From Balanoglossus misakiensis (Eukaryota; Animalia; Hemichordata), in contig CM082583.2 in the NCBI GenBank assembly GCA_040954595.2, positions 7,562,849 through 7,626,848 of the forward strand: DNA of 64,000 nucleotides, written 5' to 3'. The position numbers and the translations under genes were made by a program. The notes under the pieces are model-generated. The model worked only from the letters and a program-made list of their open reading frames with translations. It was not told the origin of the DNA and ran no database searches. Positions 9,480 to 64,000 of the stretch are shown in pieces (position 1 is the stretch's first letter; every line of letters begins with the position of its first letter).

Positions 9480-9518
<39 letters not shown>

Positions 9519-9529
9519 CTCGCTCCACC

Positions 9530-9561
<32 letters not shown>

Positions 9562-10393
9562 CTCCTTCCCCATAGTGAGGGTACACCCTCACCGAGGAAA
9601 GAACTGTTAGTGCACATCAGTCCCACTATTTCCATGCAAAACGAGGGCACCGAGGCTTGGTACACGAACAACTTCTTCGACATCTCAACTGCTGCTGCCA
9701 TTATCATGGGCAAATGGAAACTGGTCACAGGACAGTATAGTCAGTATAAACTATGTAATCTGTCTGATCTTTTACGAGAGATTCCACAGAATCCCAATGA
9801 CAGTTACAATTACGGCAGTTTAATTAAAGTCGAGTAAAATTTGAAAGAGAAAGTCCTAGCCTCCTGATCGAAAGGTAGTGATCTATAATATGAAGCTATC
9901 AGCATTGGTGGTCTTGTTGTTGCCCGTACATAACACTGCGTCAATTGGTACAAATTAACATTTGAAAGTGGTTTGTGTCTATTTATTCTCTTGCTCAAAT
10001 CGATTTCAAAGATGCGGGGATACAAAAAGTTCTGGTATTAAAATATGTGTCGTTTCTGTTACATAACTGTATGTAATTCTATAACGTGTACTTTGTCCTC
10101 CTGTCTTCCCAGGATCGCCCAAAACATGGGTGCCACCACCTGAGTACCACAGACCGGAAGAGCAAATATCGCCACCAGCGACAGAAAAGAAAGGGAAAAT
10201 GCTGTGGTTGTTTAATCTCGACCAAGACCCAAATGAGGAACACGACCTATCGGCCTACCGACCTGACATTGTGGTACGATTTCTGAAGAAACTGAGAAAG
10301 TATCAGACAGAATCCGTTTACTGCACTGGCCTTACGGGTCAATCACCATCATGCAAACAACGAGGTGATATGTGGGGACCATCTGATCTGTGA
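7075..10393 (+). CDS. Arylsulfatase B/I/J-like (S1 formylglycine sulfatase), tandem copy 1, 7 coding exons
   Basis: Signal peptide [13 protein letters not shown], then [13 protein letters not shown], catalytic CMPSR (CxPxR), [34 protein letters not shown] and [15 protein letters not shown]. Exons approximately 7075-7326, 7841-8030, 8239-8414, 8566-8776, 9043-9284, 9576-9739 and 10113-10393. Confidence 0.9.
9483..9560. repeat. (CT)n/(CTGT)n microsatellite acting as the polypyrimidine tract of a sulfatase intron
   Basis: Seen directly; ends just before acceptor CATAG at 9571-9575. Confidence 0.9.
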
Positions 10394-11136: not shown

Positions 11137-12283
11137 AGACTAGACAATGCTGCAATTAAACAATACCCTCCCTCGTTGTCTCTCCCTCGTTGTCACCTTT
11201 TCGAACCACTTTTCTTACAAAAATACTTAGTCACCTTTTATGGAGTTGAAAAGAACGCAGGTGCATCGTCCTGCTCTCCAGGTGTAGTACGTCCGTAGTA
11301 TAATGGAAGCCAATACTATAGTTATTGTATGCATGTTTCGTCTCTTGAAATGTATTAAAACTGCCCTTTTTAGTTGCTTTCATTTGATAACTATGCGATC
11401 GTCAATAAATGGAAATTAAACCCAAATACGTGTACCAAAAAACGTGCAGGAAGGATTTAAAACGGTACGTTTATTATTATCAGCGGCAGTTAGAACAACT
11501 TTGTATAGGCCTTACGGTTTGTTCATAAACGTCGACATGCATGGCATCATGGACATTGCAGGGTCTATGTCTGCACGCATCGACAAATACAATACACGAA
11601 GAGCATTGCCTTTGAAAGAAACTTATCCCCGTCGATTTTCCGAATATGTTTTTAAAATCATGAACTTGACATTTCGCCATGTCAGATCCGCGCAAAGTGT
11701 GTCTGTTTATTGGAAATGACACGTCGAACGTGTAAGTTGCTGACGTCACTGTAGTATTTTCAACGGGCGTCTTCTGCTTGCGCAGGAAGTGAAAGTGAAT
11801 TAACCCATCGGAACGTTGCCGTTTTTGACACCCGGTTTGTACTTTGAAGCCCAAAATTGAGGGTGTCGTTCCACTTTAACTTGCATATTGTCGTTTCGGT
11901 CGAATGTTAACGCACGTGTCGCCATTACAATCCGCAGTCGGAATTTGATACCAACGAACAAAATCTCAGTTTCCCGGGTATCAGCCTTCGAATCCTGGTT
12001 CTTTCACGCGTTCGTGTGGCTATGCATCAAACACCGTGAGGTTTTAGAGTGGTTCGAACCACTAGAGCACGTACTTAAAGACATACCATGGAGCTACCAC
12101 AGATGGGGTTAGTTTCGTGCTTGTACATAACTTGCTGGTATATGTGATTTATAGCGTCACCCATGACAACCGTGCGCCACATATGGTTAGTCCTATGAAC
12201 AAATTTAAAATTCTAGTGTATTTCATGCTTTCATAGCCTTGGTGCCTTTCAGTGGGACATTTTCTCTCCATCAGCCGAAAACA

Positions 12284-15200
12284 ATGCAAGTCTCCACATT
12301 ACACGCACTTCTAGCATTTGTCCAACTATCCACATTGGTTTCAGCAATATCCAGAAAACCACATATCATTTACATTCTCGCCGATGATTTGGGGTTCTTC
12401 GATGTCAGCTATCGCGACGGGTCGGTTGTCAAAACGCCGAATATCGACCGGCTAGCCGCGGAAGGGGTCAAACTGGAGAGATTTTACGTGCAGCCGTCTT
12501 GCATGCCATCCAGGAGTTGTCTTATGATGGGACGATATCAGGTATTCGCTCATTTGCTTGTCTGATGCATTTATTTATTTTTTTCCAAATAATCCGACAA
12601 AACTAACTAATTTCTGTCTTTACACTGCTTTTGTATACTAGTATTAACGTGTACGGTGAAAACACAGAGAATGCATATACTAATGCACTGCTTGCTTATT
12701 TTTCTGAATGGTTGGCCATTTTGTTGGTCATACCGCCGTATGGGTGGATGAAACTTTCTTTTCCTCTCAGTAGTAATAATTGTCATCATCAACATTTATA
12801 CGTTGTTGGCAGATTCATACAGGTTTTGATTACCGTTGTGTGAGCGGTGAAAGAGTCCGGTTCTGTATGGCGCCAGACACGGTCACCTTGCCGATGAAAA
12901 TGAAGGAGAATGGTTACAAAGCAACAATGATTGGAAAGTGGCACCTCGGGCACGAACGCAAAGAATGCGTCCCCACCAACAAAGGATTCGATAGCTTCTT
13001 CGGTGAGTAAAGGCGATGATGGCAATGACACTGTAAATGATGTCGATATAGGACCAGTCGACAACATCAGCGCCCTCGTGTGGTCAAATGTACCACAATG
13101 CATTTTATGGAAAAATATTAAAGTGACTTTTTATGCAAACTACAAGGCGCAGATGCTGTTATTCTCTACATCCTTAAACTACGGTGGTCTCGAATTGCTT
13201 TGTTTTCGTTGAGGGGTGTACCTCTGTTGCTCACTTCATTTACGTATAAGCGTGACCAGGTGTTGAATTGATTAGTTTCGCTGATGTAAAAGCCACGCTT
13301 TGCCACTCGGTCTTGTTACTGGATTGATACTGGTCCGGTAACTTTGCCGTCGCCTTTTATCGGAGTTCGGATCCACAAAGTTACGGTAATTTGCCTGTCC
13401 TGTGTGATGCGTATGCTGGTATGAAGATTGAGACTGCAGTCGGAACTCTGTGTAGGCCGGGTGGTCGTTCAGTGGCCGTGGTTGGTGTGTTTTAAGTACG
13501 CCGTGTGAATTTGGGGCCGTCCCGAGAGTGCGAGTTTCCGTGTCGCGGGAGGTAATACACGAGGCTGCTACGTTCTTTTGTACACTTGCGTAAAACGGAC
13601 AGAAGGGCCAGTATCGTCGTACGTCGAGTCGTAGAACTATCTACTAGACTTAGGACTTGTCTGAATTTTGTTTGGTCACCTGGTCACGCTCGAATTTAGT
13701 TTGTAGTTTACAGCGGGTCGTAACACCAGACATGCATTTTGCTATTTTCAGGTTACCACGCAGCAGCTGAAGACTATTACACTCACAGATTGGGGGTTGG
13801 TCGCCCAATGTGCCGGGATTTGTGGAGAAACTTGGACATTGTGGCCGATAATTACACTAATCAATACTCGACGCATTTATTTACGCAAGAAGCCCAACAA
13901 ATAATTAGGGACCAAAACCCAGAAGAGGTACGTCACATGATTAGTCTTGTTCCCTTCCTCAAATCTGACGTTGGTTGTACTATCTGTAGGCTACCTTGTG
14001 CCCCTTCTTTCATCTCAATGCATGGATGTTTATGAGAGAAGCATTATTTTTTTGTCTTGTTTCTATCCTTGGTATCAGCCTCTATTCATGTATCTGGCCT
14101 ACCAAGCTGTACACGGACCTCTTCAAGTTCCACAGGAGTACTACAACATGTACACAGGAGAAAACATCGGCGTCTTAAGAAGGACATACGCGGCTATGGC
14201 AACGTGCATGGACGACGGGATCGGTAACTTGACTAAAACCTTGAAAGAAGCCGGACTTTGGAATAACACGATTCTGGTATTCTCTTCAGGTAGGCCAATC
14301 ACGAATTATCGCTCGTTGATGATGGTCATGAGCATGCGCATCTCTGTGATGTGAAAACTATCCAATATAAATTGATTGGGACATGCTACCTATTCATGTG
14401 TTCAGATAAACTGCAAACTGCATTGCAAAATATTCAATATATCATTGAACACAGATAACGGCGGCACGTGGCACACTGGTGGACGGAATTGGCCCTTGAG
14501 GGGCGGGAAAGGCACCAACTGGGAAGGAGGTATCAGGGTAGTTGCCTTCGTGGCCAGCCCTCTATTGGCAAAACCGAGACGAACATCCCACGAACTGATA
14601 CACATGACCGACTGGCTGCCAACCTTCGTACATCTTGCCGGTGGAACGGTGGAGAACATGGCTCTAGACGGTGTTAATGTGTGGAAAACAATCAGGTATA
14701 GCATTAGTTTCTTTTATTTCTTTTTATCCATGCCTTGTGATAAATCGTCAGGTTTGTTTTTAGATAAATCGCATTTCATACAATCAAATGCAACTGAGAA
14801 GGAAATTGTACATTGACACTCGAATCACGTGCCCTCTCTCTATCCCTCCCTAGCGAAGGTGCGCCCTCGCCGAGAAAAGAGCTCTTAGTGCACATCAGTC
14901 CCACGGTTTCTCTGCAAGACGAGGGCACAGATGCGTGGTACACCAACCGATTGTTCAACGTTTCAGAAAGCGCTGCCATCATCGCGGGCAAATGGAAACT
15001 AATCACAGGACAACACAGTCAGTATTAACTATGTAATGTTCATTCTATACTTCATAAACTAGCTCAATTACTCCTGTATTTTATTAAAATAATTTATGCA
15101 ACTTATAGATGAAATTAATTAACAAATTCAGCAATTAATATAAAACTCAGCATTTTAAAGTCTACCTTATTCCCCGCCCCCCTCCCCCGCCTTCGCAGGA

Positions 15201-15479
15201 ACGCCCAGGACATGGGTGCCCCCGCCCGAGTTCCACAGACCGGAAGAGCAAATACCACCACCAGCGACAGAAAAGAAAGGGAAAATGCTGTGGTTGTTTA
15301 ATCTCGACCAAGACCCAAATGAGGAACACGACCTATCGGCCTACCGACCTGACATTGTGGTACAATTTCTGAAGAAACTGAGAAAGTATCAGACAGAATC
15401 CGTTTACTGCACTGGCCTAACGGCTCCAACTCCACCATGCAAACAGCGGGGTGATATGTGGGGACCATACGATTTATGA
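12284..15479 (+). CDS. Arylsulfatase B/I/J-like, tandem copy 2, 7 coding exons
   Basis: Same exon layout and motifs as copy 1 ([28 protein letters not shown]). Signal peptide [15 protein letters not shown]; ends WGPYDL*. Confidence 0.9.
13217..13725. mobile_element. About 510-bp insertion in intron 2 of sulfatase copy 2 (solo-LTR-like or TIR element)
   Basis: Absent from the equivalent intron of copy 1. TGT…ACA ends; 14-bp subterminal inverted repeat at 13249-13262 and 13677-13690; no clean TSD. Confidence 0.5.
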
Positions 15480-15730: not shown

Positions 15731-16570
15731 TCAAGATGGCCTGTACACAGCAACATCGGAATATTTATCTCCGTAATTTTCGCCGTAATATTCATCCCCA
15801 AAGTAATCATCGTTGTCACCGTTGGCATCGTCATAGTAGTCTTCTTCCTCGTATTCATCCTCGTCCTCATAATCGTCGTCGTCTTCGTCATCGTAATCCT
15901 CGCTCTCGTCATCGTATTGGTCGTCCTCGTCGTCTTCGTCATCATATTCGTCGTCTTCGTCATCATATTCGTCGTCCTCGTCCTCATATTCGTCGTCATC
16001 GTATTCTTCGGTGTCGTCATCGTATTCATCCTCGTCTCCGAGATAGTCCTCATCGTCAGACTCGTTATCATAAATGGCGTCTTCGTCAAAATAATCGTTT
16101 ACTTCAGCGGCATTTCCATTGTCGTCAAAAGCTGCATACCCGTTTTGAAGTTTTTGTGCTTGGTAGGCGTAGTCGTTGTAATTCGCATCGTCGTAAGTTT
16201 TTTGCCTGCGTTTGGGGAAAGAGAACGCTCGTATTAGTTAAAAACATGAAGTTGTTAAAACACTGCAAAATGGACTACCCCCTAAACTTTGGTGATTCAA
16301 ACTGTTGAGAATTTCTCCAGCACAAGACTGGATTTCGTTTTAAGGTACGATTGTAATTATTTACGCGTCCGTGCCAGTGTGAACGTTTCGGGGGATTTTT
16401 CACCCGGCCCGGATTGAATGTCAGGCTGACCGCTAAAGTTAAGCTCACCTTATCATGTTATCGATATCGCCAAAGCGTCTCGGGACCCTTTTCAAAATTG
16501 GCACGGATGACACCAATAAAGTTGTCATGAACATCGCAGATAATGCGAAAAAGAATGCTGCCTTATGCAT
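15731..16570 (-). CDS. Secreted Asp/Glu/Tyr-rich acidic protein, 198 aa, 2 exons (16570-16449 and 16205-15731); no homologue recognised
   Basis: AAG ATG start; signal peptide MHKAAFFFALSAMFMTTLLVSS; donor AG|GTGAGC and acceptor TTCCCCAAACGCAG|G, both phase 2. Exon 2 is open for 157 codons (…DEYDDEDDEYDDEDD…VYRPS*). AATAAA at 15631-15626. Confidence 0.85.
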
Positions 16571-18070: not shown

Positions 18071-18380
18071 ATCCATAATCAAAATCGGGTTAGGATCGAT
18101 TTTCCCTTTATTTCCATTACATTATGGTTATAATTCTAAATCAAAGGTTTTGGAAACAGAAAAATGAGAGACAAGTCAAGCACACTGCTCTTTTGTCTTG
18201 CACAAACATGTTACCCTCGTATCATACGTAAGATATTCAATGGGTGAGGTACGGATAAATATTCTTTTGTGTAACGCACAATATCGCGCCCATCCCAGTC
18301 GACGGCCCAGAAGCGCTTAAACCTTTAAGGCTGCAGAACGAGGATTCGTGGTCAGGTCCGCCCGCCTCTGTACGTATAAC

Positions 18381-32315
<13,935 letters not shown>

Positions 32316-32878: not shown

Positions 32879-46744
<13,866 letters not shown>

Positions 46745-47088: not shown

Positions 47089-50000
47089 ATGGAGGCAGCC
47101 GAAACGTCACCCAGTGTAGAAGTCGTGGAAGACGAGCAACAATTCAGCGAAGATTTTGCTGAAAATACCGAAAACGGGTAATTACACTACGTATTCACCC
47201 ATTTTGTAGACAATAACGGAGTATGCGTCTTTCTTTTTGCTGATATTTCACATAATTCAACCAGCGAGTAGGTCCTGGCCAATGGGCCCAGGCATAGGGC
47301 ACGCTTTGTCAATTAATGTCAGCAAATTGGTGTCTTGGTGTGAACCACGTTTTTACTCAGTGCTTTCACGTGTTTTGTGAAACAAGGCACCAGCCTGTAA
47401 CGTCTTTTATACCTTTGTAATATTCGAAGAATCGTACGCGGGCACTAGTTGCTTGGCCCGAAGGAAAACTGCAGTGACGGGGGTTACTGACGCGGGGGGG
47501 AAATAACACATGACACATGAGTTTAGACTGACCGAATTGTCGTCTTTGTTTGTATTATATGATGTTGCATTGTGTGGAGATAAACTACAATATTTGCCCT
47601 CGGGGGCAGTCAGACCTCGACCAGATACTTGGGGACCAGTCAGTCAAGTAAAGCAACCTCCTTGGAGGAGTTTGATGTTCGATTTCGAAGCCCTTGGTTG
47701 TCGATTTCAGGGCCTGTTGAACTTGTGTAGTAGGTCATTTATAAAGACAGCATTACAATGTATTGCATGGTCAAGCGGATGACCCTTTGTCTTACAGCAA
47801 TGCTCTGTTAATTGATAGCTACCTTCAGAAACAAAAGGTCATATCTTGCACAGGAGTTCACTTTGGTAGACATCAAAGTGTGCATTTCCACATTTTGCCT
47901 GGCAAACCTAGATCTGGTGTATCCGCAAACCTTTCAGATGTGTTAAAATGTACAAATTCATAGCTTTACCTTGCCTTTGTAATTAAAAATCTACATATCT
48001 CTTGGCAGGGATAAAGAAAGATCCAGGTCCCCTGTACAGAGGGCGAGGTCCAGGTCTAGGTCAAAGGAAAAGGTCGAAAGGCGGCATGGCGACAAGGACA
48101 GGGACAGGAGAAGAAACAGTGGATTCCAACGAGGGAAAGGTGATAGGGAAAGAAGAGACAGGGATAGGGATCGACGTGCATCAGCAAGAGGACCCAACTC
48201 GGCAAACCGTGTATTCATCAGCAATGTACCATATGAAATGAAATGGCAAGAAATTAAAGATTTATTCAGGGAAAAAAGTGAGTCTTGTTACCTGATAGTT
48301 ATGTTGCATCAGTTGCTCTCTGTTGAAAGGCATCTCTGATTGTTTTGAAAATTTAATAGCCCTATTTCAGTAGGAAAGCTGTCAATTTACATGTATTTTG
48401 ATGACTGATTACACTACATGGTGACAAAATTACCCATTTCTCCAGTGCATAGGTAGACTTTGACACATATTAAAGTATAGCACATGTATGATGTACAGAA
48501 AACTAAAAGGAAGTATAATAAGGTTGAAATTGTTTTTCTCTTGTACAGTTGGTGAAGTGACATATGTTGAGTTATTCATGGGAGTCGATGGAAAATCAAA
48601 GGTATGTGTTCAGTGTAATAGAAATCATTGCTCATTTTAAGGAAAGGGTGCAAAAATGTCAGATCAGATCAGAGCGCAAGCTAAGCCAATGATACGCACC
48701 ACTTACCCAACAAACTCACTGGCCATGCCAGAAAATTATCCAGGGATTGTTATCCTATACCTAATACTGATCCTCTCACTATGAAAATTCTTACCACTGA
48801 AGTTATTATTCTTACTTCATACTCATGAGATCAATAACTCATGTTTGTTTGTCAGAAAGTTAATTTATAAATCAGGTGTAACTGTAAAATGATGTGTTTT
48901 ACTAATTTTCCACTTTGTTTTTCCCTCCTTGCTTCCCTGGGATTCTGGCTGTACACTTGCATTCTAGGGTTGTGGGTAAGTTGATCAAACTTCTATACAT
49001 CTTTGCTTGTGAATTGAAAGAAATGTACTAAATATGCAATAGAAATCATGGAAACTGAAAGATAAAGGAAAGTGACATGCATTTCACGCAAAATCTGATA
49101 TATTTACATTGCCTGTATTTTCAGTTCATTTTAAAAAGAACTGTTTGAGCTGAATTTACATCATTTTCAACTCTTCTCATTCTCAGTGTTGTCGATTTCC
49201 GGGACAAAGAAACCATGGACAAAGCAATCAACAAAATGAACAAAGCTGATGTTCAAGGAAGGGCTCTCGTCGTCAAAGAGGTACAGTGTGATGCTGTTGT
49301 TTTCTTCCAGATTATCTGATTTGGTTGGGGTTAATTTGAATAATGATACAAGTAACTGTTACTATTATTCTCCAAAAATTAGGGATTTTGGAGTTATTAC
49401 ACTCAATTTCTATTCTTTGCCTTTTTTGAAAATCTCAACTGTCAGACAAATGGTAAACCTTTACTAAATCTTGCATCTCTCATCTTTCCCAAGGACACTG
49501 ATGGCAGACACACAAGCAAATTCATGAGGCAGCAAGAACGCGAAAGGGGTCCGATTGGTCCCGGCCCTGGACCTGGTCCAGCTCCACGGCCACCTCCTCC
49601 TCCACCACCAGGGAGAATGAGTGGTGGCGGCGGAATGGGGGGTCTGGGTATGGAGGGAATGGGGGGTGGTATGGGAGGAGGCAACTTTGGTGGAGGGGGT
49701 TTAATGGGTGGTGGGGGAGGACGTGGGGGTGGGGGCGGCGGCGGTGGTGGCGCTGGAGGAGGAGGGGGAGGAGCAAGTGAGAACATGTGGTTGAACCAAC
49801 AGATATTGCAACAGCTTGGACTGTCAAGACATGAAGTCAGCAATACTATCTTTCTTGCAAATGTAAGTATGGTTCGAAGTATGTGTATATCTTGCGTGAC
49901 GGATAACCACAGCAGCTGCATTCATCTCGGCCTTTACAGACTGCAGTTTCCCGTCATTCACTTTGACTTCTTGTTGAATCTTGTACACAGCTCGACTACA

Positions 50001-53000
50001 AAGTCACATGGCAGAAGCTGAAGGACATATTTCGTATGGCGGGCAATGTGACGAGAGCGGATATCAAGACCGACAGAGACGGCCGCAGTCGAGGCATGGC
50101 TATTATATCGTTTGAAACCCCAATGGAGGCAGTCCAAGCCTTGTGTATCCTTTGATGTCTTGATCTGTACAGATATTCATATAGTATTTAAGTGTTCTCC
50201 CAAGCGCTCTAAGATTTGATTTGGGAAAAATGATAAAAATTATTATCAAGACGCTGAATTACACAGTTATGCTTATCTGTTCAAGATGTTATTTTTTTTC
50301 CTTAATTTGAATGCAGCAATGTTCAATGGTCAAAATTTGTATGAAAGGCCAATGAGACTCCGAATGGTAAGTTTTTACTCTCCACCCTTCTGTAACTTAC
50401 GTTTGTAAAAGTTAAGATTGTAAATATTTGTTACTATGCCAATTCCTATCAATTTTAATGTCGGAAGTTCAAACGATGCTCGCAAGATTATTGCCTCCTT
50501 TGGCAAAACTGTATGTGTACTTTTTAATTTTAACATATTTTATGATAATCCTGTTGTAGGACAAGCTGAAAGAAGCAGATAGAGAGTTAGAACTGGGTCC
50601 ACCGTTACCAGGTAAGCAAACATGTACATTTTAAAATGCATAAACAAGTGCAGAAATTTGTGTAGGTAATTTGCATCAAACTTATGATTGAGTTCAGAGG
50701 ACTCATAAGCCAAAAACTGGGAATTTCGAAAAATTTGGCTGAATTTGAAACATGCAAATGTATGGGACTGACTCAGAGAAATGGTTAGAAATCATCAAAG
50801 TGACTCAAAGCTTTGAAAAATTATGTTTGTTAATACTGAGAATTTATTTTTCTACAGCTGGTTTGAGCGGAATTGGACCAACTTTGGGGGAGCTTGCCAC
50901 TTCACCTGACAGCAGAAGTGTGGGCAGCCAGGGAATGATGGGATTGGGAGGCGGAAGTGGTGGTGGCAGTAGTTTGGGAATGGGTGGTGGAATGGGAGGT
51001 GAGTGTTCAGCCGGAATATAACTGAAACAATGAACGGAATACAGATTTGATGATTCATGTACTTTCGGGAGTCTTGCGTGTCTAGAAGTATATAATTGAT
51101 CCCGAAGCAACAACCTGAAATCAAGCAATCAAAAGTGTATGCACCCTGGATGTTTTGTGTGTGAATTGCAGTTACAGTTTCTCTTCTTGATGCCAGTTGA
51201 AATAGCTTAACTTGCGTTTTTTTTTTCTCTTTGCAGGTGGGATGGGAGGAATGGGGAGCAGTATGGGAGGCATGGGATCGGGAATGGGCGGAGGAATGGG
51301 ATCTGGGATGGGAGGCGGAATGGGTTCCGGGATGGGAGGAGGCGGTATGGGATCGGGGATGGGAGGCGGTATGGGATCTGGGATGTCGTCTGGAATGGGA
51401 AGCAGTGGACTTGGTGGGCTTGGAGGCAAGTACAACATTATCTGAAAAGTGTTCATTTATTGGCTTGTCTTGTTTTCTCCACTGTCCTCTTTGTGTATGT
51501 CTTCTTGCTCGTCTTGTTCCGAATGTTTTTATTACTCCCGAAGTGTGGAGTGATGCATGAATTAATGTTGAAATGTCTCTTGCCCACCCCAGCTTATATT
51601 AAATGTGATATTGTTGTACTGTAAGTCTTTATGAGTACTATGCAGTTCCTTGAAACAATTTGTCATGCTTGGGTCCAGATTGAAGGGAACGGGAGCCATA
51701 ACCTCTAACCTTTGTGTACTCCATAGTATGGCCAATACTCCTGAAGTAAAATTTGCCTGTTTTATCCATTGCAGGTATGGGCGGTATGAGTGACCTGGGT
51801 GGATCATACGGAGGAGGAGGAGGCAGTGGGGGCATGGGCTTTGGCGAGATGTCCGGGTCGGGGATGGGCGGTCTGGGCAGCTATGGTGGGGGAGGAGGGG
51901 GAGGGGGCGGTGGTAGCTTCGGCTCGAGTATGGGCGGGGGCGGCGGAGGCTATGGCTCGAGTGGTGGGATGTCCGGAGGCATGAGTGGACTCGGCTCCGG
52001 CTATGGCGGCGGCTCCAGCGGATACAGCTCCATGGAAACCGGCAGGGATCGCGGAAGTTCCTTGGGAGGAGGAGGAGGAAGGCAAGGAGGATGCCAGATC
52101 TACGTCAGAAACGTAAGAGTTGCCAGTCATTTTCAGTCTGTCTTTCTCTGAGAGAAGGTTTGATGGTTCAGTTGGGATTTATAGGGTGTAGTTTATGCCT
52201 TCTGTATAAATCTGAAGAATTAGCTGCAGGTCTTGTTGCCATCCTGTTGAATGCATTGCAAATGTCCATTATGTACCAGTATGACATGCTATTCTTTACC
52301 AGTTTCCCCTTGTGGTTTGATGGACCTCTGGTTGATTTTTGTTCCCACAGCTTCCGTACGCTTACACATGGCAGATGCTGAAAGACAAATTCCGAGAGTT
52401 TGGTGAGTGTTGCTTTTATATAATAGGTTTTCATCATCATTTCCAGTTCATGCTGCTGGGATAACAGTGCAGATCACTGCAACCACTTTGCTAAATTTTC
52501 TATTGAAGTTTAGTCTTGTCAACAGCAGGAATGCTTAGCGGCTTGTTCTCTCTTGCTCCCCCCTCCAGGTCGTGTGATGTACGCTGAAATCAAGATGGAT
52601 GGCGGAAAGTCTAAGGGATGTGGTACTGTGAGGTTTGAATCTCCAGACGGTGCAATGAGAGCTATCAGTATCCTTTGATAATAGGAGTCATTCATTTGGT
52701 TGTGGGGCGTGTTCCCTTGGGTGGGGTTTGTTCCGGAATCTGTGTTGTATGTCATCAGTATTTGTGTAGTATGTCATCAATACCTGAATGGGTGACATGT
52801 ATTATTTAGGTGTGTGTGTGAGTGTGTGGTATGTCATTGATATCTTTTAGTGTATCATTTGATATGTCACTGATGTACAAAATATTATTTTACTGTTATC
52901 TGATGTAAGCAGTAGACTTTCTAAAAATTGCATCAACCTTGTTTGGTACAGAACTTATTTCTTCCAGTGTGGAAATATCAAGACTGAACATTTACTCTGG

Positions 53001-53091
53001 GATTATTTCCTTAACCTTCTTTCTCTCAGATATGATGAATGGGGCTAGGGTTGATGGTCGTGAAATAGATGTCCGCCTTGACAAAAACTAG
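47089..53091 (+). CDS. MYEF2: MYEF2/hnRNP M family RNA-binding protein: 3 RRMs, Gly/Met-rich linkers, RS/RD-rich N-terminus
   Basis: RRM1 RVFISNVPYEMKWQEIKDLFREKIGEVTYVELF…KSKGCGVVDF; RRM2 TIFLANLDYKVTWQKLKDIFRMAG…GRSRGMA; RRM3 CQIYVRNLPYAYTWQMLKDKF…GKSKGCGTVRF…GREIDVRLDKN*. Co-orthologue of vertebrate MYEF2 and HNRNPM. Confidence 0.88.
48968..48975 (+). other. 8-nt microexon GGTTGTGG of the MYEF2/hnRNP M homologue
   Basis: TTCTAG|GGTTGTGG|GTAAG; required to join the phase-0 end KSK| to the phase-2 start |T GTT GTC, giving KSK-GCG-VVDF. Confidence 0.85.
50145..50316 (+). other. U12-type GT-AG intron in RRM2
   Basis: T|GTATCCTTTGAT…TTCCTTAAT TTGAATGCAG|CA ATG TTC. Confidence 0.9.
52668..53029 (+). 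other. U12-type GT-AG intron in RRM3
   Basis: A|GTATCCTTTGAT…TTCCTTAAC CTTCTTTCTCTCAG|AT ATG ATG. Confidence 0.9.
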
Positions 53092-53862: not shown

Positions 53863-56588
53863 TAGTACTTTGTATATGCTTCGTTGTTTGTATTCAATTT
53901 GCAAGAGAGGTGTTTTTTATTCCAAACTGCATGTTTGTACAAAAGTTCTGCATTTAGGCATATTGTACTGTAATAGTTACTCAGTGTTTTGGGCCCAGTG
54001 TATTGCTGGAACTTGGCAGTTGAGTGATGTTTTTCTCTCAATCTGAGTTATCAACACGGTGAGTTTATTCCTCGCTTGTCGTGGATTTGTGACATTTTTA
54101 GCTATCCTTGTAGATGAATAAAGATTCCTTGGCATATTTGTCGTAAAGAAGAGCTCAGATATCCTTTTGTTTGACTGGGTTTTGCGTACGTGGATGTCTT
54201 TGTCTCGCATTTCAGCTGATCTGGTGAAATAGTGCTAGGGTGTGTAACCATCCTTACAGAAAATTTGCCTGTTTGGTTGTCGTCTAGTGAAAATGCACCG
54301 CATTTGACCTCGTGTCAAGTTGGTTCAACGTCTTCCAAATTCATCCTTCAGACTTGAAATGCGCTGTATATTCTGTTTGCAGATCTGGTCTTAGTGAAGT
54401 ATTTTTTTTGGCAAAGATAAATAATGATTCAGACGCAAAATGGTTAACAGAAAAACTGCTGTGCCTAGCATCTTGTCACCATTGTTCTCTTGTCGGATGG
54501 AATAGAATTTGTGTGGTTGCGAGCTTGATTTATCTTGTGTGCTTTTATGGGTGTTTGTTGATGGTTGTGTATTCAAGCTGGTTGTCCAACTACTACTTCC
54601 AGTGCTGTGTGTTTACTCTCGTACCTTCCTGCATCTGGCAGTAACACCATGTCTGGGGAATGGTTCCAGAGAATGGCAGCATGTATATGCTTGTAATCTT
54701 TTTTTGATTTCATGCGTTCACTAAGAAGACCTGTGTCATTGGAGCTTGGACGTGTCCAACATCAGATGGATTCGGTCAAGATTGTGGAGTTTTGTGTCCA
54801 TGTGACGTGACAAGACTTGTATGGCATGATCATATCAGAGTGTATTCCCCCATGAACCTCCGAAGTGATGTGATGAACGTGGTTGTGTGACTTCAGAATC
54901 CTTGACGTGGTCAGCTGTTTCCCCCTCACACAGTCGGCAACCTATCAACTGGGATGTTTCTATCAGTCACCTCAGAACTATTGTCTTATTTTTTGATCGT
55001 TAAGGATATAATTTTATTTTAATAGAGATATATGTTAATAAAACTGGATTGTCTGTGCTAGGTAATTGTAACGGGTAGGGTATTGTTATCACTTGTAAAC
55101 TTTTCTAGTGATCCGACCACTGATTGCGGCATCCATGTTTGAAGTGGCATTGGTGTGCTTGTAAGCTAGCTCAGAGAATTTCTCTCAGAAATACGAGCAA
55201 GGTGGGCATGTCACTCGTATTTCAACAAATGTATGTGCTGTAAAGATTAAGAATTTTGTAAAGAAATTGGCGTGTACTGAGTTGCATGGTTTGAAAGCTT
55301 ACCTGGAAAGAACATGTCTTTGTCATAGTGTTGGGGATAGTCACTATTCTGGGGTAATCTAATTGCGTGGTACAGTTGATAAGGAGGAACAACTGGCTAA
55401 TAGTATGTCTTTGAATTCTGAGCAATGCCTCCGAAAAATTCTATTTGCTGGTAAGATTTCCATAATTTTTATGCCTGTGGGTGCCATTTTGGAGTTCATC
55501 TGCATTGATTGTGACAGTTGTACTGTTTGCATGGTTGCTTAGTTGTATGTTGGAAAGTGTTCCATCAACCATCACAGAATAAAGCATCACCGAGCAACTT
55601 TGAATTCAGGTAAGTATGTGCTCTTCTTTTCCAGCCAAGCCTGCTACCATCCCCGGCAGTGTAAGTAATTAGACGTCATTTGACCAGTTTGGACTGGAGG
55701 TGGGAGCTGGAGCTACCAAATTCTGTGTCAAGTTGACATACTGTGTGGACATTTTCTCAAGTTTTTCACCAAGAAGATTTTCAAGTACTAAATGGGGAAA
55801 AATGAGGGTGCATGTTGAGTTGTTTTCAAAGTACTATAGTTGGTAAATAGAATTTTGAGTGGTTGACACCAGTTTTGTAATTTATTAACCCAGTACTGTC
55901 AATATTCGGCATTTACAAAATGGAAAACAAGTGCACACTTGGTTTATTATTGTCTTCCTTTTCCCCTGTTTGTATAGCTTTTAAAAAAAATTAACAATGG
56001 TACATCATTTATGAGCATTGTTAGATTTGTTAAGTCTGCATGGACCAATGTGAAATTTTATAAGTTTTAGGAAAATCTTTAAAGTGACTTAAAATCATTC
56101 AATAAAACAGTTTTGAAGCCTATATCAGTTGTAGCCTTATGGTTATTTCTCTATGGGGGGTTGAAACATTCTTTTTTCCCGCGTGCTTGTGAACATATTT
56201 ACTGACCATTGGACCAGTTGCCAGTGAACTGAAACAAATAGAAAACGGCCCGTGCATCTGTTGAATCAACAGTATGATAAATTATTTATTGGTACTTGAT
56301 GCCTGGTATTCCTAATTCATTGCTTATAGCTAGCTAGAAGTCGTGTGATAGAAGTCTGTCTTTTGGTCAATCTCGGCGGTATTGGCCGAGAAGTACAACG
56401 ATGACTTGTATGTAGGATATGACCACGTCCTTGGAAGTTAGAAGAACATTGTTTTCAGCGTCTCCTGTCTAGTCTCTTGTGGGAGTTGCCAGAGCAACGT
56501 CATCGGTGTGAAAAATCGCGTGGGAACTGCAGTTGTCTTTTACCCGAGTCGTCTAAACCGCGATCTTGGAAAAATCTCGCACGATTTC

Positions 56589-59500
56589 TCATTCCTTATC
56601 ACAGAATCTCCCGGAGAAAGGCTTCTGACATTCGCATATCCAAATTTCCTCGTGCGTTTCTCTGTACCTGGGCGACGTGTGGACACAGCGCCCGCGGCCT
56701 GAGCATTGGTCTGGTTGATATGGCAACCAGTATTCCGTATTGATGCCGGTGGGAAGAAACGGTTTGCCTGTAAGAAGACAAAATACGTGGCACTTCATAT
56801 GCTTGTGGAGTGTTTGCTGTTCAAAACAATGTTGAAACGAATTATTGGAGAGAGATAGTTACCTTTCATAAAAAATACATTGATTTAACCAGACTTTGGG
56901 TCACAGAATAGATTACAAAGATAGATATGTTCGTATGCCAGGTTTTCTTTCTCAAACAATCCGTTTTGGTCAAACACACAGGCCGGTCTCGATAACTTGA
57001 ACCAGTAGGCCTACATAATCTCTACTAGGATTTTATTCTGGTTCTGTATCTGTTGACCCTGCAAAACTACCAGTTTTTGCTTGTTTGTTTACAATACTGA
57101 CCCTCCCCTGTCCAGTGTATGATCCCGGCCTTTCCGATGCGTTTTCGTCTGGATTCGTTCATCTCGACTGCCGGTGCGCCGAGGTACTCCACGTTCCATC
57201 GTCTCTCAAGAACTTGCCACCTGCCCTGGTACAGGATCTGAAGAATGGCCTGGGCGTCCCATAACCATAACTTAGCATCGGCGGGCCTTTCTGCATTCTG
57301 AAACGACAGAATTTAAATCCCTATCGGCTCTATGCTTTCCATATTGTTTTCTGGTAACGCATTTGTATTAAAATATACCCACCAACTTCAGCCAAAATTC
57401 CACATCTTGGACGAGGTTGTGGCGACGGTAGTAATCGAGGTCCATGACAAATACGCCGCAGTTGAAAATGTTCACGGTCTTGTTGAACGGTCTGTTGTAC
57501 CTGTCGTTGTAATAGTTGGATAGAAATTAATGAAATACCAAGCCACGCATTTCGTCCGTATAGTTTATTAAAATATAAACATAAATCTCAACTGAAGCTT
57601 TGGTGCTCCAATTTACTGTGTGTGCATGTTGGTAGAGGCTCATTCGCTCACCTTTGATGATTTAGTTTCTGTCTGTATAAGACGTATGCAGTCACTTGAA
57701 AATGTGCTTGAACTTTTTTCTCATCAAACAAGTGACAAACTGTTGCCGCGATCTGTCCGTGGACCAGTAAAGATTTTTTTTCGGACACGGATAACGCTGC
57801 TTACCTCTGTTCGTAGAGTTCAGCGACGGCGTCAACGTCGAATTCCTCGTGTATGTAAGACCGATGGTTGTCGACGGCGAGAAAGGGTGCCGTCAGATTG
57901 GCCGCCTCAGACCAAAGATCTTCAATAGGGGATTGCACTACTAGATCCATGTCTAGGTAGATAGCTTTGGAAACATGTGGAAATAGCCTACAGCAAAATA
58001 AAGGAGTGGAAACGCATTTTTTCTACAACTACGCATACCTTTAATATCCGCAGCATTACAAATATCTATAATATTGTTACTATTTCCCCTCCTGTGATAG
58101 ACTTATAGTTCTAATTTATAGCATCCAGCTATAACAAAATTTACGAATTGGCTAGCTGCCTGTGTATAACGCTCTAAACTTATAATGCAAATGCAGTCCG
58201 TAACCTTTTGTCCTATCCGAAATGTGTGAGAGAAAACGCCGCATAAAGACAATGCACCAATATCAGCGACAGGACAACTGGACAATAGAGGTTGAAAACG
58301 CGCTAGATTTAAATTAAGTAGAGCACCGATGCCAACATATTTACTTGCTTCTCTCCGCAAGGGTCAAAAAGCTCTACGAAATGACCAATTCATCAACCTA
58401 CCTGTAAAAGTATGCCCGAGCGTAGTTACACGGACTTTTGAGGCGTTGGAGGAAATAGGATTTCTCCCATAAATCTTTCATGTCTGGGCCCAGTATAGTA
58501 CCATCGAATTCGACAATTTCAATCTGAAATTTATAAAAGTAAGCAGGGCGATAGCAAGAAGCAGTGAAGGCGTATTTATATGTGTAATAGAAACCCACGG
58601 GAAATTAAGAGATCAAAAGAGGACATCCAGAAGAACCCGTACTCGACTTACAAGAAGTGAATTTAGAGGGTCCAGAACTTATCGCATACGTGGACTCCAC
58701 AGTTGACTGCCTGATCATAGCCCATACAACAAAGAAAGGAGATAGGAGGCTAGGGGTAGCTGGAGTTTATTCTGGATATTTTTTAATTGCTAATCCACTG
58801 ACACGCCATGGAAATTGTGTACGCACCCGCTATGCGGATTGCCAAAAAGTTCGTCAGCACTGGGTTTTGAATGAGTGCGCGTCTACCAGCTCGTAACTGA
58901 AGCCCTAATGGGGGTTGTCTTACGTAACTTTGACATGTAACATGGAGCCACAACGTGGCATACGGTATTCTCTTTCGGAGGATGTGGTGGCCCTGAAAAG
59001 GGCCGTTTTGTTTGGGTTTTGAAACTAAGAATTACTTCTTAGCCTTCTTGGCAGCTGGCTTCTTTGGTTTTGAAGCCTTCTTGGGAGTTTTCTTAGTGGT
59101 AGCCTTCTTCACGGGCTTCTTCGGTTTCTTGTCTTTCTTCGGCGTCTTTGCTTTGGTCGTTTTCTTTGCTGCTGCCGCCTTCTTTGGAGTCTTCTTGGGT
59201 TTGTCTGCCTTCTTTGGTGTCTTTGCCTTGGGTTTCTTGGCTGGCTTCTTCTTAGGGGTCGCCTTGGGCTTCTTGGCGGGTTTCTTCTTGGGTTTCTCCG
59301 GCAACTTACCGACTCGCAGACGACCGGTAACGCCGGAGGCTGTGGAGCCCTTGGGGCGAACGAGCAGACCAGATTCGAGACCAGATTTCAGAGCCCGGCG
59401 GAGACTTGAGGTGAGATGAGACGCGCTGACGGTAGTGTAGTGAGACAGAATATAGCCCTTGATTGCCTGAACCGAGCTACCTTTGGTATCTTTCAGGGTC

Positions 59501-62500
59501 TTGATAGCTTCGACCACCATGTCGATGGTCTTCGGGTGGGTAGGGGCGGCCTTGGCCTTGGTCTTCTTGACGGGAGCAGATTCAGCCATGGTGAGTTTAT
59601 CGGTGACGACGGGAGTCCTTGATCAACAGACTAAGCAGAGCGATATGCCTGTAAACACTCAGAGAAGCCACCTTTATCTACAGTTCGCGAACGTCGGAGA
59701 AAACAATGCATTGAAATAAGGTGCTCTGTGCTCATTGTCCGCCATTTTGCCAACTCAATTTGTGTTTCTCTCGGACTGTTTCAGGAGCATTTTCGCTAAA
59801 GGCAGAATTATAAACAATGTAACATTGGTAAAATAATTTAGAATATATCCTCCACTACACTTTGGTGAAGTTTAATCATACATTTCGACATTGTAAACAA
59901 CTTTTTCGTTGAATTACAAATACCATACCATGTCAACATTTCCCTCTCTGAAGACAAGTTTGTGTTTTCTGGCCGTGAAATATTGCATTTTTTCCCAAAT
60001 TTAACTAGTTCTATGTATGTTTTCACAATGAAGCTTGTTAGCAAATATATCAATTAGAGAATTATGTCGAAGATGGTTGTTCTTCTTTGCTTCTCTGTCG
60101 AGAATTTGGCCCAAACGCAGACGTAAGCTGAAACTGGCCGGTCTGCGACACCAACGGTAGCCATTGCTAAATTTATGCGGATAGACGTCGACTCCGGGAA
60201 CAGATAAAGTAAAATTTGCAGTAGGCCTAGGTGCAATATTCACCTTTTCCCCAAAAACTATTTTATACTTTAAAATAATGAAATCTCCTTACCATGCCTT
60301 CGGGAATTTCCAGTCCATGACATTGTAGGTACTCCAGCAAACTCTCTTTCGTTTCCCCACACACGATAAAATGAATTCGAATTCTTTGGGGACTTCTTGT
60401 ATTTGATAATATGGAATTAATCACAGTAGGCCCACCTTTAATCAAGATAACAATAATATGCCAAGTATAAGCATTGGGTCATTATGGGACGCCTTGGTCC
60501 ATGAATCTGGGGGTAGGGGTAGTCGGGAAGAGGGATTCTACCGTAGGGGACTGTAAGGTAAGAGCCACCGCAGTGGAATGACATTAGGAGGGGAGATAGA
60601 ATGCACCATCTCCGTGCACACAATTTCCAAAAATGAATGCCAATATCACATGTCTGATTAACGGACTGGCTTTGACAATGATCCGTCCGCCTGTTGCGGT
60701 CGTGTGTCGTAACCTTGACAACACATCGATTACAGCTCTTTTTCACTTGCCAGTTCAAGTGTCAGTGGGCTTGGCGATCACTTGGTTCATTTGGGGGCAT
60801 GCGCGTTAATGGGTAAAATGATTGGATATTTTATTAGGCGAGGCCGTCAGTACATATTTTATATGCTTTATATATCCATGTCAGCCAGCTGTTACGAAGG
60901 ATCGCCATAAATCCAGGCGGGTTGTGACCAGAGTGCCTCGTGTTATGATACTGGGAATTAAAAAGAACTGCACGAACTCGCCCTGTCTAACACTGTACTA
61001 GTCACAGGTATTGTGTCTGCTTTTTCTTGGTTCTGCCACAATACAAACTCATGGTCTGATGACCTGCCAACATTTTATGTAACTCAGGTCAATCGCAGAT
61101 CTGATCATCCGTTGATGTAGACTGTATTTAGAAGAGCCAAGAAAAGGCAGACCTTGTAGGCCACACATCACGGTCTTGCTCACACATTCTCATAGTTTGC
61201 CCTGACTCTTCGCCGGAAGAGCATAACCGCCATGCTGCCTTTACACCATGCAACTAACGAACATACATCATGATTTTGATCCGAGAAATTCCACGCTCCA
61301 TCGACAGAGCCGCACTAGCTGCACCAAAATAATCCCCTGATTAATGGTCTTGTACTCGCCAGCAGAAATATTTAAATTTTGATGGTAATCATAACGTACA
61401 AACACTGACGAGGAGAAATATAAATAACGATTTAGAGAGTATCGTTGTATAGTGTAGGCACACGAACAGTGCGTACGCTTCAAAATGGGTCTAGAGTTAT
61501 GAGAGGATTAGGCCTACTTCCGTTCTCAGTGATCTTGTAATTCAGTGAACAAATTTGAAGACAAGATCAGGCTGAAGGTGGCATGTCGAACCTCACGCAG
61601 AATACACGCTGCAATGTCAATGCAGAGAGCTACAGGTGGTTGTTACTCTGTTTGCCTGCGTTCATGCGAAATAAATCTGTGTCGCACCAACGTCTCTGAT
61701 TTCGATCATCTTGGAGATATAAGAATGAGCAGTTGGCGGACTTTAATATGCAATGTTCAGAGATCTGATCGGGGGAAGGCCAATGTTTTTTTCAGGATAT
61801 CGATGGTGGCAACGTTGTCTGCAAATCACGTATCAATGTCTGACAAATACAGGGAATCGACACGTGTTCGACAAATAAAATTGACATTTTATTGGGGCCA
61901 ACGCCCGAGGTTAATAATAATACCGTCATACGTCACTGGCAGATGGTATGTCATCCATGACACGTAAGTTATATTGCAGTTTCAAACCAGATTGGCTCAC
62001 CGATAACAGTTTCTCTTTAATGGCTAGCAAAATAGAACTAAGGAAGAATCAATAATCAATTAGACTTCAGTTGACGATAAGGAAAATTATGAAAGATGTT
62101 ACCGTTGAAACTTTAGGAAAAGATCGGTCTTGTATTAGGAAAATAAATGTATGTCGGATCCCTCGCAGACTGAACAAAACAAGTGTAACGAATTCAGACT
62201 TAATTTGAGAATCAAAAGTGCCTTTTTTTCTTATATGGTAGCTTTTTGAACTCTTGTGGGTCGTGTTAGACGGCATTACATAAATTTGCAATTGCTTGGT
62301 TACGGAGGTTCACATGGGAATCCATGTTATAAGAGCAACACAGCTATACATTATGTGCATGGTCCTCAGACCACTTAGTTTAATAATGATTGAAGTCTTA
62401 CATATACCAACCTGGAAAGTGCCTTATATCGGCCGCTAATATGATGTGAATATATCCATCAGATACGCGTGGTAGGCCTAAGTCTGTTTTATCTGCGACT

Positions 62501-62661
62501 GGGCCATATTCTCGCTCCGCTGCAATATCTGTGGCCTCCGGGGTCATGTCTCTGACCCTATGCTGCTGTCGATCGAGCCAGTGGAATGTCCTCACAAACA
62601 CCAAACCGCACAGTAACACCGCTGAATACACAAAAAATGTTGGTCCCAGTTTTCGACGCAT
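56589..62661 (-). CDS. Glycosyltransferase family 8 (GLT8D-like) type II membrane protein with a C-terminal EGF-like module, 7 coding exons
   Basis: N-terminal TM segment (MRRKLGPTFFVYSAVLLCGLVFV), then IHIILAAD, TVINSILSNT, NYARAYFYRLFP, KAIYLDMDLVV (DxD), FNCGVFVMDL, RWNVEYLG and IIHWTGEGKPF, then CSGRGRC…CEC…FSGRFC*. Confidence 0.85.
58968..59004 (-). terminator. Replication-dependent histone 3' processing signal: stem-loop plus histone downstream element
   Basis: AAAAC GGCCCT-TTTC-AGGGCC ACCACA (stem-loop 59004-58989), then purine-rich GAAAGAGAA (58976-58968). Confidence 0.93.
59032..59589 (-). CDS. Linker histone H1, 185 aa, intronless, nested in intron 2 of the GT8 gene
   Basis: Globular domain HPKTIDMVVEAI…KGSSVQAIKGYI…LRRALKSGLESGLLVRPKGSTASGVTGRLRVGK; Lys/Ala/Pro-rich tail with TPKK motifs. 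Confidence 0.96.
   Translation of the reverse strand: MAESAPVKKTKAKAAPTHPKTIDMVVEAIKTLKDTKGSSVQAIKGYILSHYTTVSASHLTSSLRRALKSGLESGLLVRPKGSTASGVTGRLRVGKLPEKPKKKPAKKPKATPKKKPAKKPKAKTPKKADKPKKTPKKAAAAKKTTKAKTPKKDKKPKKPVKKATTKKTPKKASKPKKPAAKKAKK
59672..59767 (-). promoter_or_regulatory. Histone H1 promoter elements
   Basis: H1 AC-box AAACACA (59767-59761), GC box GGCGGGAC (~59744-59737) and TATA-position element GATAAAG (~59678-59672), in the order expected for H1 genes. Confidence 0.6.
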
Positions 62662-64000
62662 TGCCGGTGGGAAAAAAACTTCAGGAACCCAAATCAAAGA
62701 GAGATCGCGAAGTGCGAAGGCGCGGATGTATGGTAGCGCAGAACTGTCGCACACTGGAAGCCATACACGTGTGGCCGGTAGAGGACAGATTTCATCGACG
62801 TCAACACATTCCTTGGTGATATATTAATACCCTGGTCAACTTTCGATCGCCCAGAACCTATTTAACGGTCGACATCTTCCCCACAGTTCCTTAATTGCCT
62901 TCAGAATCGGAGGAGAAGAGACCAGTCACTGTTCAATAAGTTTCGTTTTTGTCAGCTTGCGTCCACACACATATATACTCCCACTAATACTGGCGTCAGC
63001 TTGCTAGTCTCGTTTTCAAACTCACAGTAGGCTTACCAGATACCAATAAAATCCTTATATTATACCAAACATAGGAAAATCCTCTCCCAAAACAGTTCAC
63101 AACTTGTTTCACATTTCCAAATTGTATTATCTGCTCAGGGTTGCGGAAATCCGCATTTTCAGAAGTTTTCAAACAATAACGATAACAATGAAATTTAAAA
63201 TCGCATTTGCACACATTTACCAATGGAACTTCACTGACTGTTATAGAAACAAACAACATATGCGCTTTCACATCATTCAGTGATTGTACGGTTTACCTTC
63301 AGGGGTCACCTCATTGTATCGATTCTGACACGAACGCTAATCATATAGTCCACCACAAAGGAACGTGTTTTCACACACAGTTTTACCGGCGCTTATCTCT
63401 GTCGATCGGACAACACCTCCGTACATCAGTTTGTGATTGGACGAGTATAAGTAAATTTTACGGGTCTCGGAGTTTTACAGCACACCAAACGGTTTAATTC
63501 CGCAAACCTCCGATCGGTTATGGAAAAACAAGAAACATGATTTTAACAATGTAAATGAGGCAAGGAGAGTCTATACATGTACAAGCAGGCCGAAACTAAT
63601 ACCACCGTAACGAAAAAGTGTAAATTTTGAAAAAAAATATCATGGTCTTTATACACCTCGTGTGGTTAGGGATGGACATTGTGACACAATGTTGGTATAA
63701 TACATGCTTTCTCATTGGCTAATATATCCCAGGTGCACATCGATTTGCATGCGCATGTCACTGTATTTTAGTCACGCCACCATTATGGACGCATACTAGG
63801 ATATCTCCGACACAGAATTTTCAAGCGAAGTGGAACGGTTTTGTTCTCAGTTTGACAACCCGATACCACGGAATAACAGACGTCGACAAGATTTTAAACT
63901 AACGGTAAAACGGGTATGTGAAAGGCTCCCGTGAACAGTGCATAATTGACGGAAAACGGAGACATCGCGTACCACAAAATGCCCGCAAGTCAACCAGGTG

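What the first reader, a model, noticed from the sequence alone, without database searches (positions are those of the whole stretch)
58524..60292. Solitary histone gene nested on the same strand inside a glycosyltransferase intron
Seen: GT8 intron 2 (donor at 60292, acceptor at 58524) holds the whole H1 unit (promoter, ORF, stem-loop, HDE) in the same orientation as the host, and no core-histone genes occur in the window. Inference: every host pre-mRNA carries a U7/SLBP cleavage site. S-phase histone processing could therefore truncate the GT8 transcript and couple its output to the cell cycle. Conversely, the host promoter could make spliced or read-through H1 messages.
Basis: partly seen in the sequence, partly recalled or inferred. 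Interest (0 to 1): 0.7.

Follow-up and report, generated by a model that had tools for sequence, protein, structure and literature searches.

The report
Linker histone gene inside glycosyltransferase intron
A sugar-transferase gene, likely from an acorn worm, carries an intact linker-histone gene with a histone-type RNA end signal inside one intron on the same strand; the two likely work as separate genes, with the host splicing the signal out, so this is probably an ordinary nested gene rather than a cell-cycle switch.

Summary
The anatomy is confirmed. A seven-coding-exon GT8 glycosyltransferase (396 aa, all GT-AG, 56% identical to a Saccoglossus protein across the exon 2-3 junction) holds a 185-aa intronless H1 in coding intron 2, same strand, with a Histone3 stem-loop and downstream element. 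No core histone lies in the window. The H1 belongs to an acorn-worm family found beside H3 in two metagenome loci; it shares their 3' element (52-54 of 58 columns) and a promoter 10-mer near -100. So it is likely a dispersed replication-dependent-type H1 with its own promoter, copied as DNA. U7 cleavage of the host is untested (no RNA run listed). Published work argues both ways, on balance against: introns block stem-loop processing and human H2B/H2A pre-mRNAs splice the signal out, yet their splicing rises on cell-cycle arrest. Host-promoter messages cannot encode a whole-H1 fusion. Nested genes are common and HILS1 is an intronic H1 precedent. The scan noted histone-type 3' ends on intron-nested genes in two other genomes (antisense, non-histone); I found no note of this arrangement. 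Interest 0.3; regulated truncation about 8%.

The parts
62412..62661 (-). GT8 coding exon 1 (ATG at 62661; N-terminal hydrophobic segment, likely a type II membrane anchor)
   Evidence: best 19-residue hydropathy window 2.08 at residue 5
60293..60435 (-). GT8 coding exon 2 (AAG acceptor, phase-0 donor)
58524..60292 (-). GT8 coding intron 2, 1769 nt, GT-AG, hosting the H1 gene
   Evidence: junction aligns without a gap to XP_002736850.1
59761..59767 (-). H1-box-like AAACACA at -178 (consensus recalled); same word at -172 in L001, only AAACA variants in L002
59688..59697 (-). H1 promoter 10-mer CCGACGTTCG at -108, shared with two related H1 genes at -99 and -102
59673..59680 (-). TATA-like TAGATAAA (weak; by position only)
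59032..59589 (-). Intronless linker histone H1 ORF, 185 aa, 30% Lys, 2.7% Arg
59304..59312 (-). Donor-like site inside the H1 ORF (intron would start at 59309; 7 of 9 matches to the donor consensus); use untested
58989..59004 (-). Histone 3' stem-loop (6-bp stem, 4-nt loop)
58962..58988 (-). Spacer with predicted cleavage site (58985/58984) and purine-rich histone downstream element (core 58976-58968)
58766..58771 (-). AATAAA about 215 nt past the predicted cut; possible back-up poly(A) signal, not above the window's background of 0.83 per kb
58402..58523 (-). GT8 coding exon 3
57805..57987 (-). GT8 coding exon 4 (holds the DxD motif, motif role recalled)
57383..57500 (-). GT8 coding exon 5
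57102..57297 (-). GT8 coding exon 6
56589..56767 (-). GT8 coding exon 7, with an EGF-like stretch just under Pfam's cut-off; stop 56591-56589

Best explanation
An intact, intronless H1 gene with a histone stem-loop end lies on the same strand inside coding intron 2 of a GT8 glycosyltransferase gene, and it is likely a dispersed copy of the acorn-worm replication-dependent H1 family that is transcribed from its own promoter and cut by SLBP/U7, while the host likely splices the whole unit out. The copy most likely arrived as DNA, because it keeps upstream promoter motifs and the downstream element that a mature mRNA lacks. Host transcripts likely escape U7 cleavage most of the time because they are intron-containing, spliced RNAs; any loss is predicted to be a small leak, not a switch. 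Shown: nesting, reading frames, conserved elements, family. Inferred: expression, processing, route of arrival, host escape.
For: Host frame intact over 7 exons, 217 of 385 aligned residues identical to XP_002736850.1. Of the top 20 H1 hits, 13 carry names and all 13 are acorn worms; best 88% to Ptychodera flava XP_070571032.1. Family members sit next to H3 in 2 of 2 full-length related loci (L001, L002). The 3' element matches 4 of 4 related elements at 52-54 of 58 columns, against 28-29 of about 61 just downstream in the 3 with flanking sequence. Promoter 10-mer at a conserved position. Globular-domain dN 0.17-0.18 versus dS 1.4-2.6. Copies away from the main group recur: Glandiceps 7 on one contig and 1 on another, the latter sister to one of the 7 (95/90); P. 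flava 2 plus 1. No repeat or inverted repeat brackets the unit among those shown. Literature passages: introns block stem-loop processing (PMC3661734); both elements can be spliced out (PMC9756948); single histone genes are common in sea urchins (PMC13525598); most host/nested pairs show no expression relationship (PMC11694760); U7 knockdown rarely raised hosts of intronic HDE-like repeats, 13 of 59 (bioRxiv 10.1101/2023.08.25.554787; these lack the stem-loop).
Against: No RNA evidence for either gene, so expression is not shown. dN/dS reflects the family over a long branch, not this copy: a recent silent copy would look the same, and this genome's other H1 copies could not be seen. The intron-block result is from mammalian constructs and was read second-hand. 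Spliced histone forms rise in arrested cells, so competition with splicing can follow the cell cycle. An active nested promoter can stop host transcription (PMC13309782, abstract and introduction).
Confidence: 0.6

Rival explanations
1. Promoter-driven interference: the H1 promoter fires in S phase (or in one tissue) and its transcription stalls or terminates host polymerases, so GT8 output would dip with H1 activity without U7 cutting the host RNA.
For: At H13/Mcts2, nested transcription triggers host intronic termination, even with the intronic poly(A) signal removed (PMC13309782, abstract and introduction). The H1 promoter motif is conserved. ATTAAA lies at 59876, upstream of the H1 promoter, and AATAAA at 58771.
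Against: Those hexamers are not above background (0.83 AATAAA per kb). Most host/nested pairs show no correlation. The same introduction says same-orientation collisions push polymerases forward in vitro. No expression data.
Confidence: 0.15
2. Silent or recent orphon: the H1 is a young DNA copy from a cluster elsewhere, kept quiet by host transcription through its promoter, and is intact only because it is young.
For: Copies group largely by species, so dispersal is frequent and often recent. No Saccoglossus H1 entry lies on the 797,736-bp scaffold of the GT8 relative (0 of 12 with a contig length). The downstream element is 2 nt shorter than in all 4 related elements. A degenerate single-locus H1 copy is described in Hydractinia (PMC5011920, passages).
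Against: No stop, frameshift or stem defect. The 2-nt difference may be a species difference. The window H1 is nearer the lone P. flava copy (path 0.17) than the two neighbouring ones (0.20, 0.21), which would fit an old dispersed gene, though that branch has no support.
Confidence: 0.13
3. One reading: U7/SLBP cuts host pre-mRNA at the nested signal in S phase often enough to tie GT8 output to the cell cycle.
For: The signal is in the host pre-mRNA, well conserved, and 460 nt before the acceptor, so it is made before the intron can be closed. An active H1 promoter 700 nt upstream could bring processing factors to the locus (inference). H2AX is processed outside clusters. Spliced histone forms rise on arrest.
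Against: Introns prevent proper stem-loop processing; the host already has one intron and a donor upstream. U7 snRNP is scarce and concentrated. The cut product would encode only a 140-aa fragment lacking the catalytic exons. No sign that the arrangement is conserved. No reason was found why this enzyme should follow S phase.
Confidence: 0.08
4. Assembly artefact: a repetitive histone copy was joined wrongly into the intron.
For: Histone loci are hard to assemble (PMC13525598, passages). No reads could be laid.
Against: No N in the window; both flanks are non-repetitive within the region; no H3 or other cluster neighbour came along.
Confidence: 0.03

Closest known systems
Metazoan replication-dependent histone genes and their dispersed single copies (PMC13525598, PMC9526256, PMC5011920; passages read)
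   Same: Intronless ORF, stem-loop 27 nt after the stop, purine-rich downstream element; single genes outside clusters are described in sea urchins and Hydractinia.
   Different: Here the single gene lies inside a spliced non-histone gene on the same strand; S-phase expression is untested.
HILS1 (H1.9) in an intron of alpha-sarcoglycan (PMC6069787; passages read)
   Same: A lone linker-histone gene nested in an intron of an unrelated gene.
   Different: HILS1 is a divergent spermatid variant; from recall it is polyadenylated and has no stem-loop. Its orientation was not in the passages read.
Human HIST1H2BC, HIST1H2BD and HIST1H2AC spliced isoforms (PMC3661734, PMC9756948; passages read)
   Same: A pre-mRNA in which stem-loop and downstream element lie in an intron and are either cut or spliced out; the spliced share rises in arrested or differentiated cells.
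   Different: There one histone promoter makes both forms and no intron precedes the signal; here a separate upstream gene with an earlier intron reads through.
Mouse H13/Mcts2 (PMC13309782; abstract and introduction read)
   Same: A nested gene with its own promoter in a host intron, able to shorten host transcripts.
   Different: Mcts2 is an imprinted retrogene acting by transcriptional interference and poly(A) sites, not by U7; its same-strand orientation is recalled, not read.
Sperm protamine-like proteins PHI-2B/PHI-3 (database names of the best hits)
   Same: Winged-helix domain similarity gives the relatives this automatic name.
   Different: The protein is Lys-rich and Arg-poor (30.3% and 2.7%) and the family lies beside H3 with shared stem-loops, as canonical H1 does.

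Membership tests
Replication-dependent histone gene | Intronless histone ORF | tested here: met
   558-nt single ORF, PF00538 E=1.4e-22
Replication-dependent histone gene | Conserved 3' stem-loop close to the stop codon | tested here: met
   RF00032 35.1 bits, cut-off 34; 27 nt after the stop
Replication-dependent histone gene | Purine-rich downstream element | tested here: met
   52-54 of 58 columns identical to 4 related H1/H3 ends
Replication-dependent histone gene | Pairing of the downstream element with this animal's U7 snRNA | not testable with these tools
   No genome held; no U7 in the window
Replication-dependent histone gene | S-phase, non-polyadenylated expression; NPAT/HLB association | not testable with these tools
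   No RNA run listed
Replication-dependent histone gene | Location in a histone cluster | tested here: not met
   No other histone in 64 kb; only 4.4 kb of sequence is visible on the H1's 5' side. It is therefore filed as a dispersed, replication-dependent-type gene, not a cluster member
Same-strand nested gene | Whole gene inside one host intron, same orientation | tested here: met
Same-strand nested gene | Own promoter | tested here: inconclusive
   Conserved 10-mer and H1-box-like word; no start site mapped
Retrocopy | Lacks promoter and sequence past the mature 3' end; poly(A) tract or target-site duplication | tested here: not met
   Promoter motif and downstream element are kept; no bracketing repeat among those shown
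Sperm protamine-like (PL/PHI) protein | Arg-rich composition (criterion recalled) | tested here: not met
   Arg 2.7%, Lys 30.3%
Sperm protamine-like (PL/PHI) protein | Sperm-restricted expression | not testable with these tools
Glycosyltransferase family 8 | PF01501 domain above cut-off | tested here: met
   Two single exons score 25.4 and 26.7 bits against 24.3; the 56%-identical relative scores 99.2
U7-attenuated host gene (proposed) | Host RNA cut at the nested stem-loop, dependent on U7/SLBP | not testable with these tools

The most novel reading that the evidence does not exclude
The nested H1 turns its host into a U7 substrate: in S phase the H1 promoter draws histone-processing factors to the locus, GT8 pre-mRNAs are cut at 58985/58984 before intron 2 closes, and a glycosyltransferase is switched off with DNA replication. 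This would be a natural non-histone gene attenuated by the histone 3'-end machinery.
Probability: 0.08. Interest if true: 0.75.

Novelty: new member of a known kind. Interest (0 to 1): 0.3.

Why it matters
As it most likely stands, it is one more dispersed histone gene and one more nested gene. Its value is as a natural test of substrate choice: the same stem-loop and downstream element are transcribed in an intronless RNA (H1) and in an intron of a spliced RNA (GT8), at one locus. Measuring both would show whether promoter identity and splicing are enough to protect a non-histone transcript from U7, and how a lone stem-loop histone gene is processed away from a cluster, which PMC13525598 (passages) calls little studied. 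If the host were cut in S phase, it would be a new route to cell-cycle control of ordinary genes.

Tried and rejected
Expression: no RNA holder listed; no evidence either way. Whole genome: none held, so other H1 copies, U7 snRNA and flanks were not seen. Synteny: an exon 4 search found 1 relative among 10 candidates, from Saccoglossus; searching with that protein found only itself among 1122 candidates; a scan of metagenome contigs found no GT8 relative among 592 stretches; the 10 next relatives looked up, of 150 listed, include four named acorn-worm proteins that are paralogues at 34-45% on contigs bearing none of the listed H1s. So the insertion could not be dated; the 0 of 12 result for Saccoglossus is weak, since annotation can miss same-strand nested genes and only 120 of 524 H1 hits were listed. 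H1 scans: 3 loci in metagenomes, of which L003 is a weak partial match and was not examined; 1 weak viral match with no histone ORF; none in prokaryote genomes. Transposon or retrocopy marks: none among the 20 direct families and 25 inverted pairs shown or 5 tandem rows. In-frame GT8-H1 fusion from an upstream acceptor: none among 98 AG sites scanned, the first 60 nt of the intron left out; in-frame products arise only from AGs inside the H1 ORF, nearly all AAG lysine codons. A 10-nt antisense match to the stem-loop flank at 56242-56251 looked striking but 40 of 200 shuffles reach it: rejected. The 'sperm-specific' label: rejected as an automatic name. The H1 tree leaves the window's position unresolved. 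Papers fetched but not used for a claim: PMC4053861 (passages), PMC5546720 and PMC2586383 (reference entries only), PMC6210712 (passages). No paper on a same-strand stem-loop histone gene in a non-histone intron, or on acorn-worm histone gene layout, came up in 10 full-text searches; the library lacks most subscription and older papers, and no supplements were read, so host/nested tables such as those of PMC11694760 may list mammalian cases.
Full report
What was checked. I read 56000-64000 on the minus strand, rebuilt both genes, compared them with relatives, and searched the literature. No genome and no RNA run were available, so nothing about expression is shown.

The host. Seven coding exons on the minus strand (62661-62412, 60435-60293, 58523-58402, 57987-57805, 57500-57383, 57297-57102, 56767-56589), all with GT-AG ends, give a 396-aa open frame, identical at 217 of 385 aligned positions to Saccoglossus kowalevskii XP_002736850.1. 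The exon 2-3 junction aligns without a gap, which is the best available support for the 60292 to 58524 intron. Two single exons pass Pfam's GT8 cut-off. The protein has an N-terminal hydrophobic stretch and a C-terminal EGF-like stretch just under Pfam's cut-off. Non-coding 5' exons were not resolved, so 'intron 2' counts coding exons.

The nested gene. An ORF at 59589-59032 encodes a 185-aa H1. Twenty-seven bases after the stop is a stem-loop (59004-58989), the only Rfam hit in the window (35.1 bits, cut-off 34), followed by a purine-rich element. No core histone is present: 1 of 31 ATG-started ORFs of 95 aa or more has a histone domain, an H3 tblastn is blank, and there is one perfect stem-loop match.

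What kind of H1. Of the top 20 hits, the 13 that carry names are all acorn worms; the best is Ptychodera flava XP_070571032.1 at 88%, so the window is likely from a ptychoderid or near relative (inference). The databases call many of these proteins 'sperm-specific PHI-2B/PHI-3-like', but the protein is 30% Lys and 2.7% Arg, and two metagenome loci place the family next to H3; L002 is a 3600-bp H1-H3 repeat. The window's 3' element matches the four H1 and H3 ends of these loci at 52-54 of 58 columns, while the sequence just beyond falls to 28-29 of about 61, although synonymous sites are near saturation (dS 1.4-2.6, dN 0.17-0.18). Upstream, the 10-mer CCGACGTTCG lies at -108 here and at -99 and -102 in the relatives; 5 of 1000 shuffles and 2 of 426 window tiles reach that length, position not counted. 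This is the anatomy of a replication-dependent H1 with its own promoter. Because promoter motif and downstream element are both kept, it likely came as DNA, not as a retrocopy; no bracketing repeats were seen.

How usual is a lone copy. Glandiceps has 7 listed copies on one contig and 1 on another, the latter sister to one of the 7 (95/90); P. flava has 2 on one contig and 1 on another. Whether those are alone or intronic I could not see. Single histone genes are described in sea urchins (PMC13525598, passages) and Hydractinia (PMC5011920, passages). About 12-17% of mouse and human genes host a nested gene, with only a slight bias to the opposite strand (PMC11694760, passages). Rat Hils1, a linker histone, lies in intron 9 of alpha-sarcoglycan (PMC6069787, passages). 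The insertion could not be dated: no P. flava or Glandiceps orthologue of this GT8 was found, and 0 of 12 Saccoglossus H1 entries with a contig length share the GT8 relative's scaffold, a weak hint that the nesting is not shared.

Would the host be cut. The signal is in the host pre-mRNA, 460 nt before the acceptor; that much follows from the sequence. [quoted passage not shown] For it: spliced histone forms rise on arrest and differentiation, so the two routes can compete; H2AX yields a stem-loop mRNA in S phase without NPAT or a cluster (PMC9526256, passages); and an active H1 promoter in the same intron could bring the factors close (inference). All of this is mammalian or fly work. A cut host RNA would encode a 140-aa fragment ending 1278 nt before the cut, so the effect would be loss of GT8, not a new protein. 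A second route to coupling needs no U7: nested transcription alone can terminate a host (H13/Mcts2, PMC13309782, abstract and introduction).

Host-driven H1 messages. Of 98 AG sites between the donor and the stem-loop (first 60 nt left out), none upstream of the H1 ATG gives a product that reaches the H1 stop; the nine with the best pyrimidine tracts stop within 4-45 codons. In-frame products come only from AGs inside the H1 ORF. So such messages would be poor sources of H1. In the other direction, a donor-like site at 59309 inside the H1 ORF, joined to host exon 3, would give a 94-aa tailless H1 with an early stop; the relatives lack the GT there and I treat it as likely chance.

Verdict. Best reading (0.60): a dispersed replication-dependent-type H1 working from its own promoter, with the host splicing it out. 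Rivals: promoter interference (0.15), silent recent copy (0.13), regulated U7 truncation (0.08), misassembly (0.03). No paper on this exact arrangement came up in 10 searches of an incomplete library, but each ingredient is known. Earlier scan notes describe histone-type 3' ends on antisense intron-nested non-histone genes in two other genomes and nothing on this locus. Novelty: new member of a known kind. Interest 0.3, mainly as a clean test case for U7 substrate choice.

Noticed in passing
L002 1-3861 (and L001 426-2503): A 3600-bp repeat unit holding only H1 and H3 on one strand, with no H2A, H2B or H4 ORF among 10 ORFs of 70 aa or more and only two stem-loops. An H1-H3 doublet repeat is an unusual histone array; the contig may be a collapsed unit.
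   Followed up: partly
window 58976-58962 and L001, L002: The downstream element is conserved over about 15 nt across H1 and H3 ends, which predicts the 5' end of the acorn-worm U7 snRNA; the window's copy is 2 nt shorter than the four others.
   Followed up: partly
window 56589-56767 (-): The GT8 ends in an EGF-like cysteine stretch, also present in the Saccoglossus and Glandiceps relatives, all below Pfam's cut-off: a GT8-EGF family with several acorn-worm paralogues.
   Followed up: partly
window 59304-59312 (-): Donor-like site inside the H1 ORF; splicing to host exon 3 would give a 94-aa H1 without its tail. Not shared by relatives.
   Followed up: partly
window 56232-56251 (-): Sequence antisense to the stem-loop's 5' flank and arm near the GT8 3' end; 40 of 200 shuffles give as long a match, so likely chance.
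   Followed up: yes
window about 7036-10393 and 12209-15479 (+): Two tandem, closely similar sulfatase genes (PF00884).
   Followed up: no
window 15731-16237 (-): A 168-aa frame with a long Asp/Glu/Tyr-rich acidic tract.
   Followed up: no
window about 18321-31767 (+), 36712-37041 (-), 47983-53091 (+): By ORF content: an ABCC-type transporter (weak TMD0 hit), an RNA polymerase largest subunit (PF04998) and a Gly-rich RRM gene resembling MYEF2/hnRNP M (name recalled), the last converging on the GT8 3' end.
   Followed up: no
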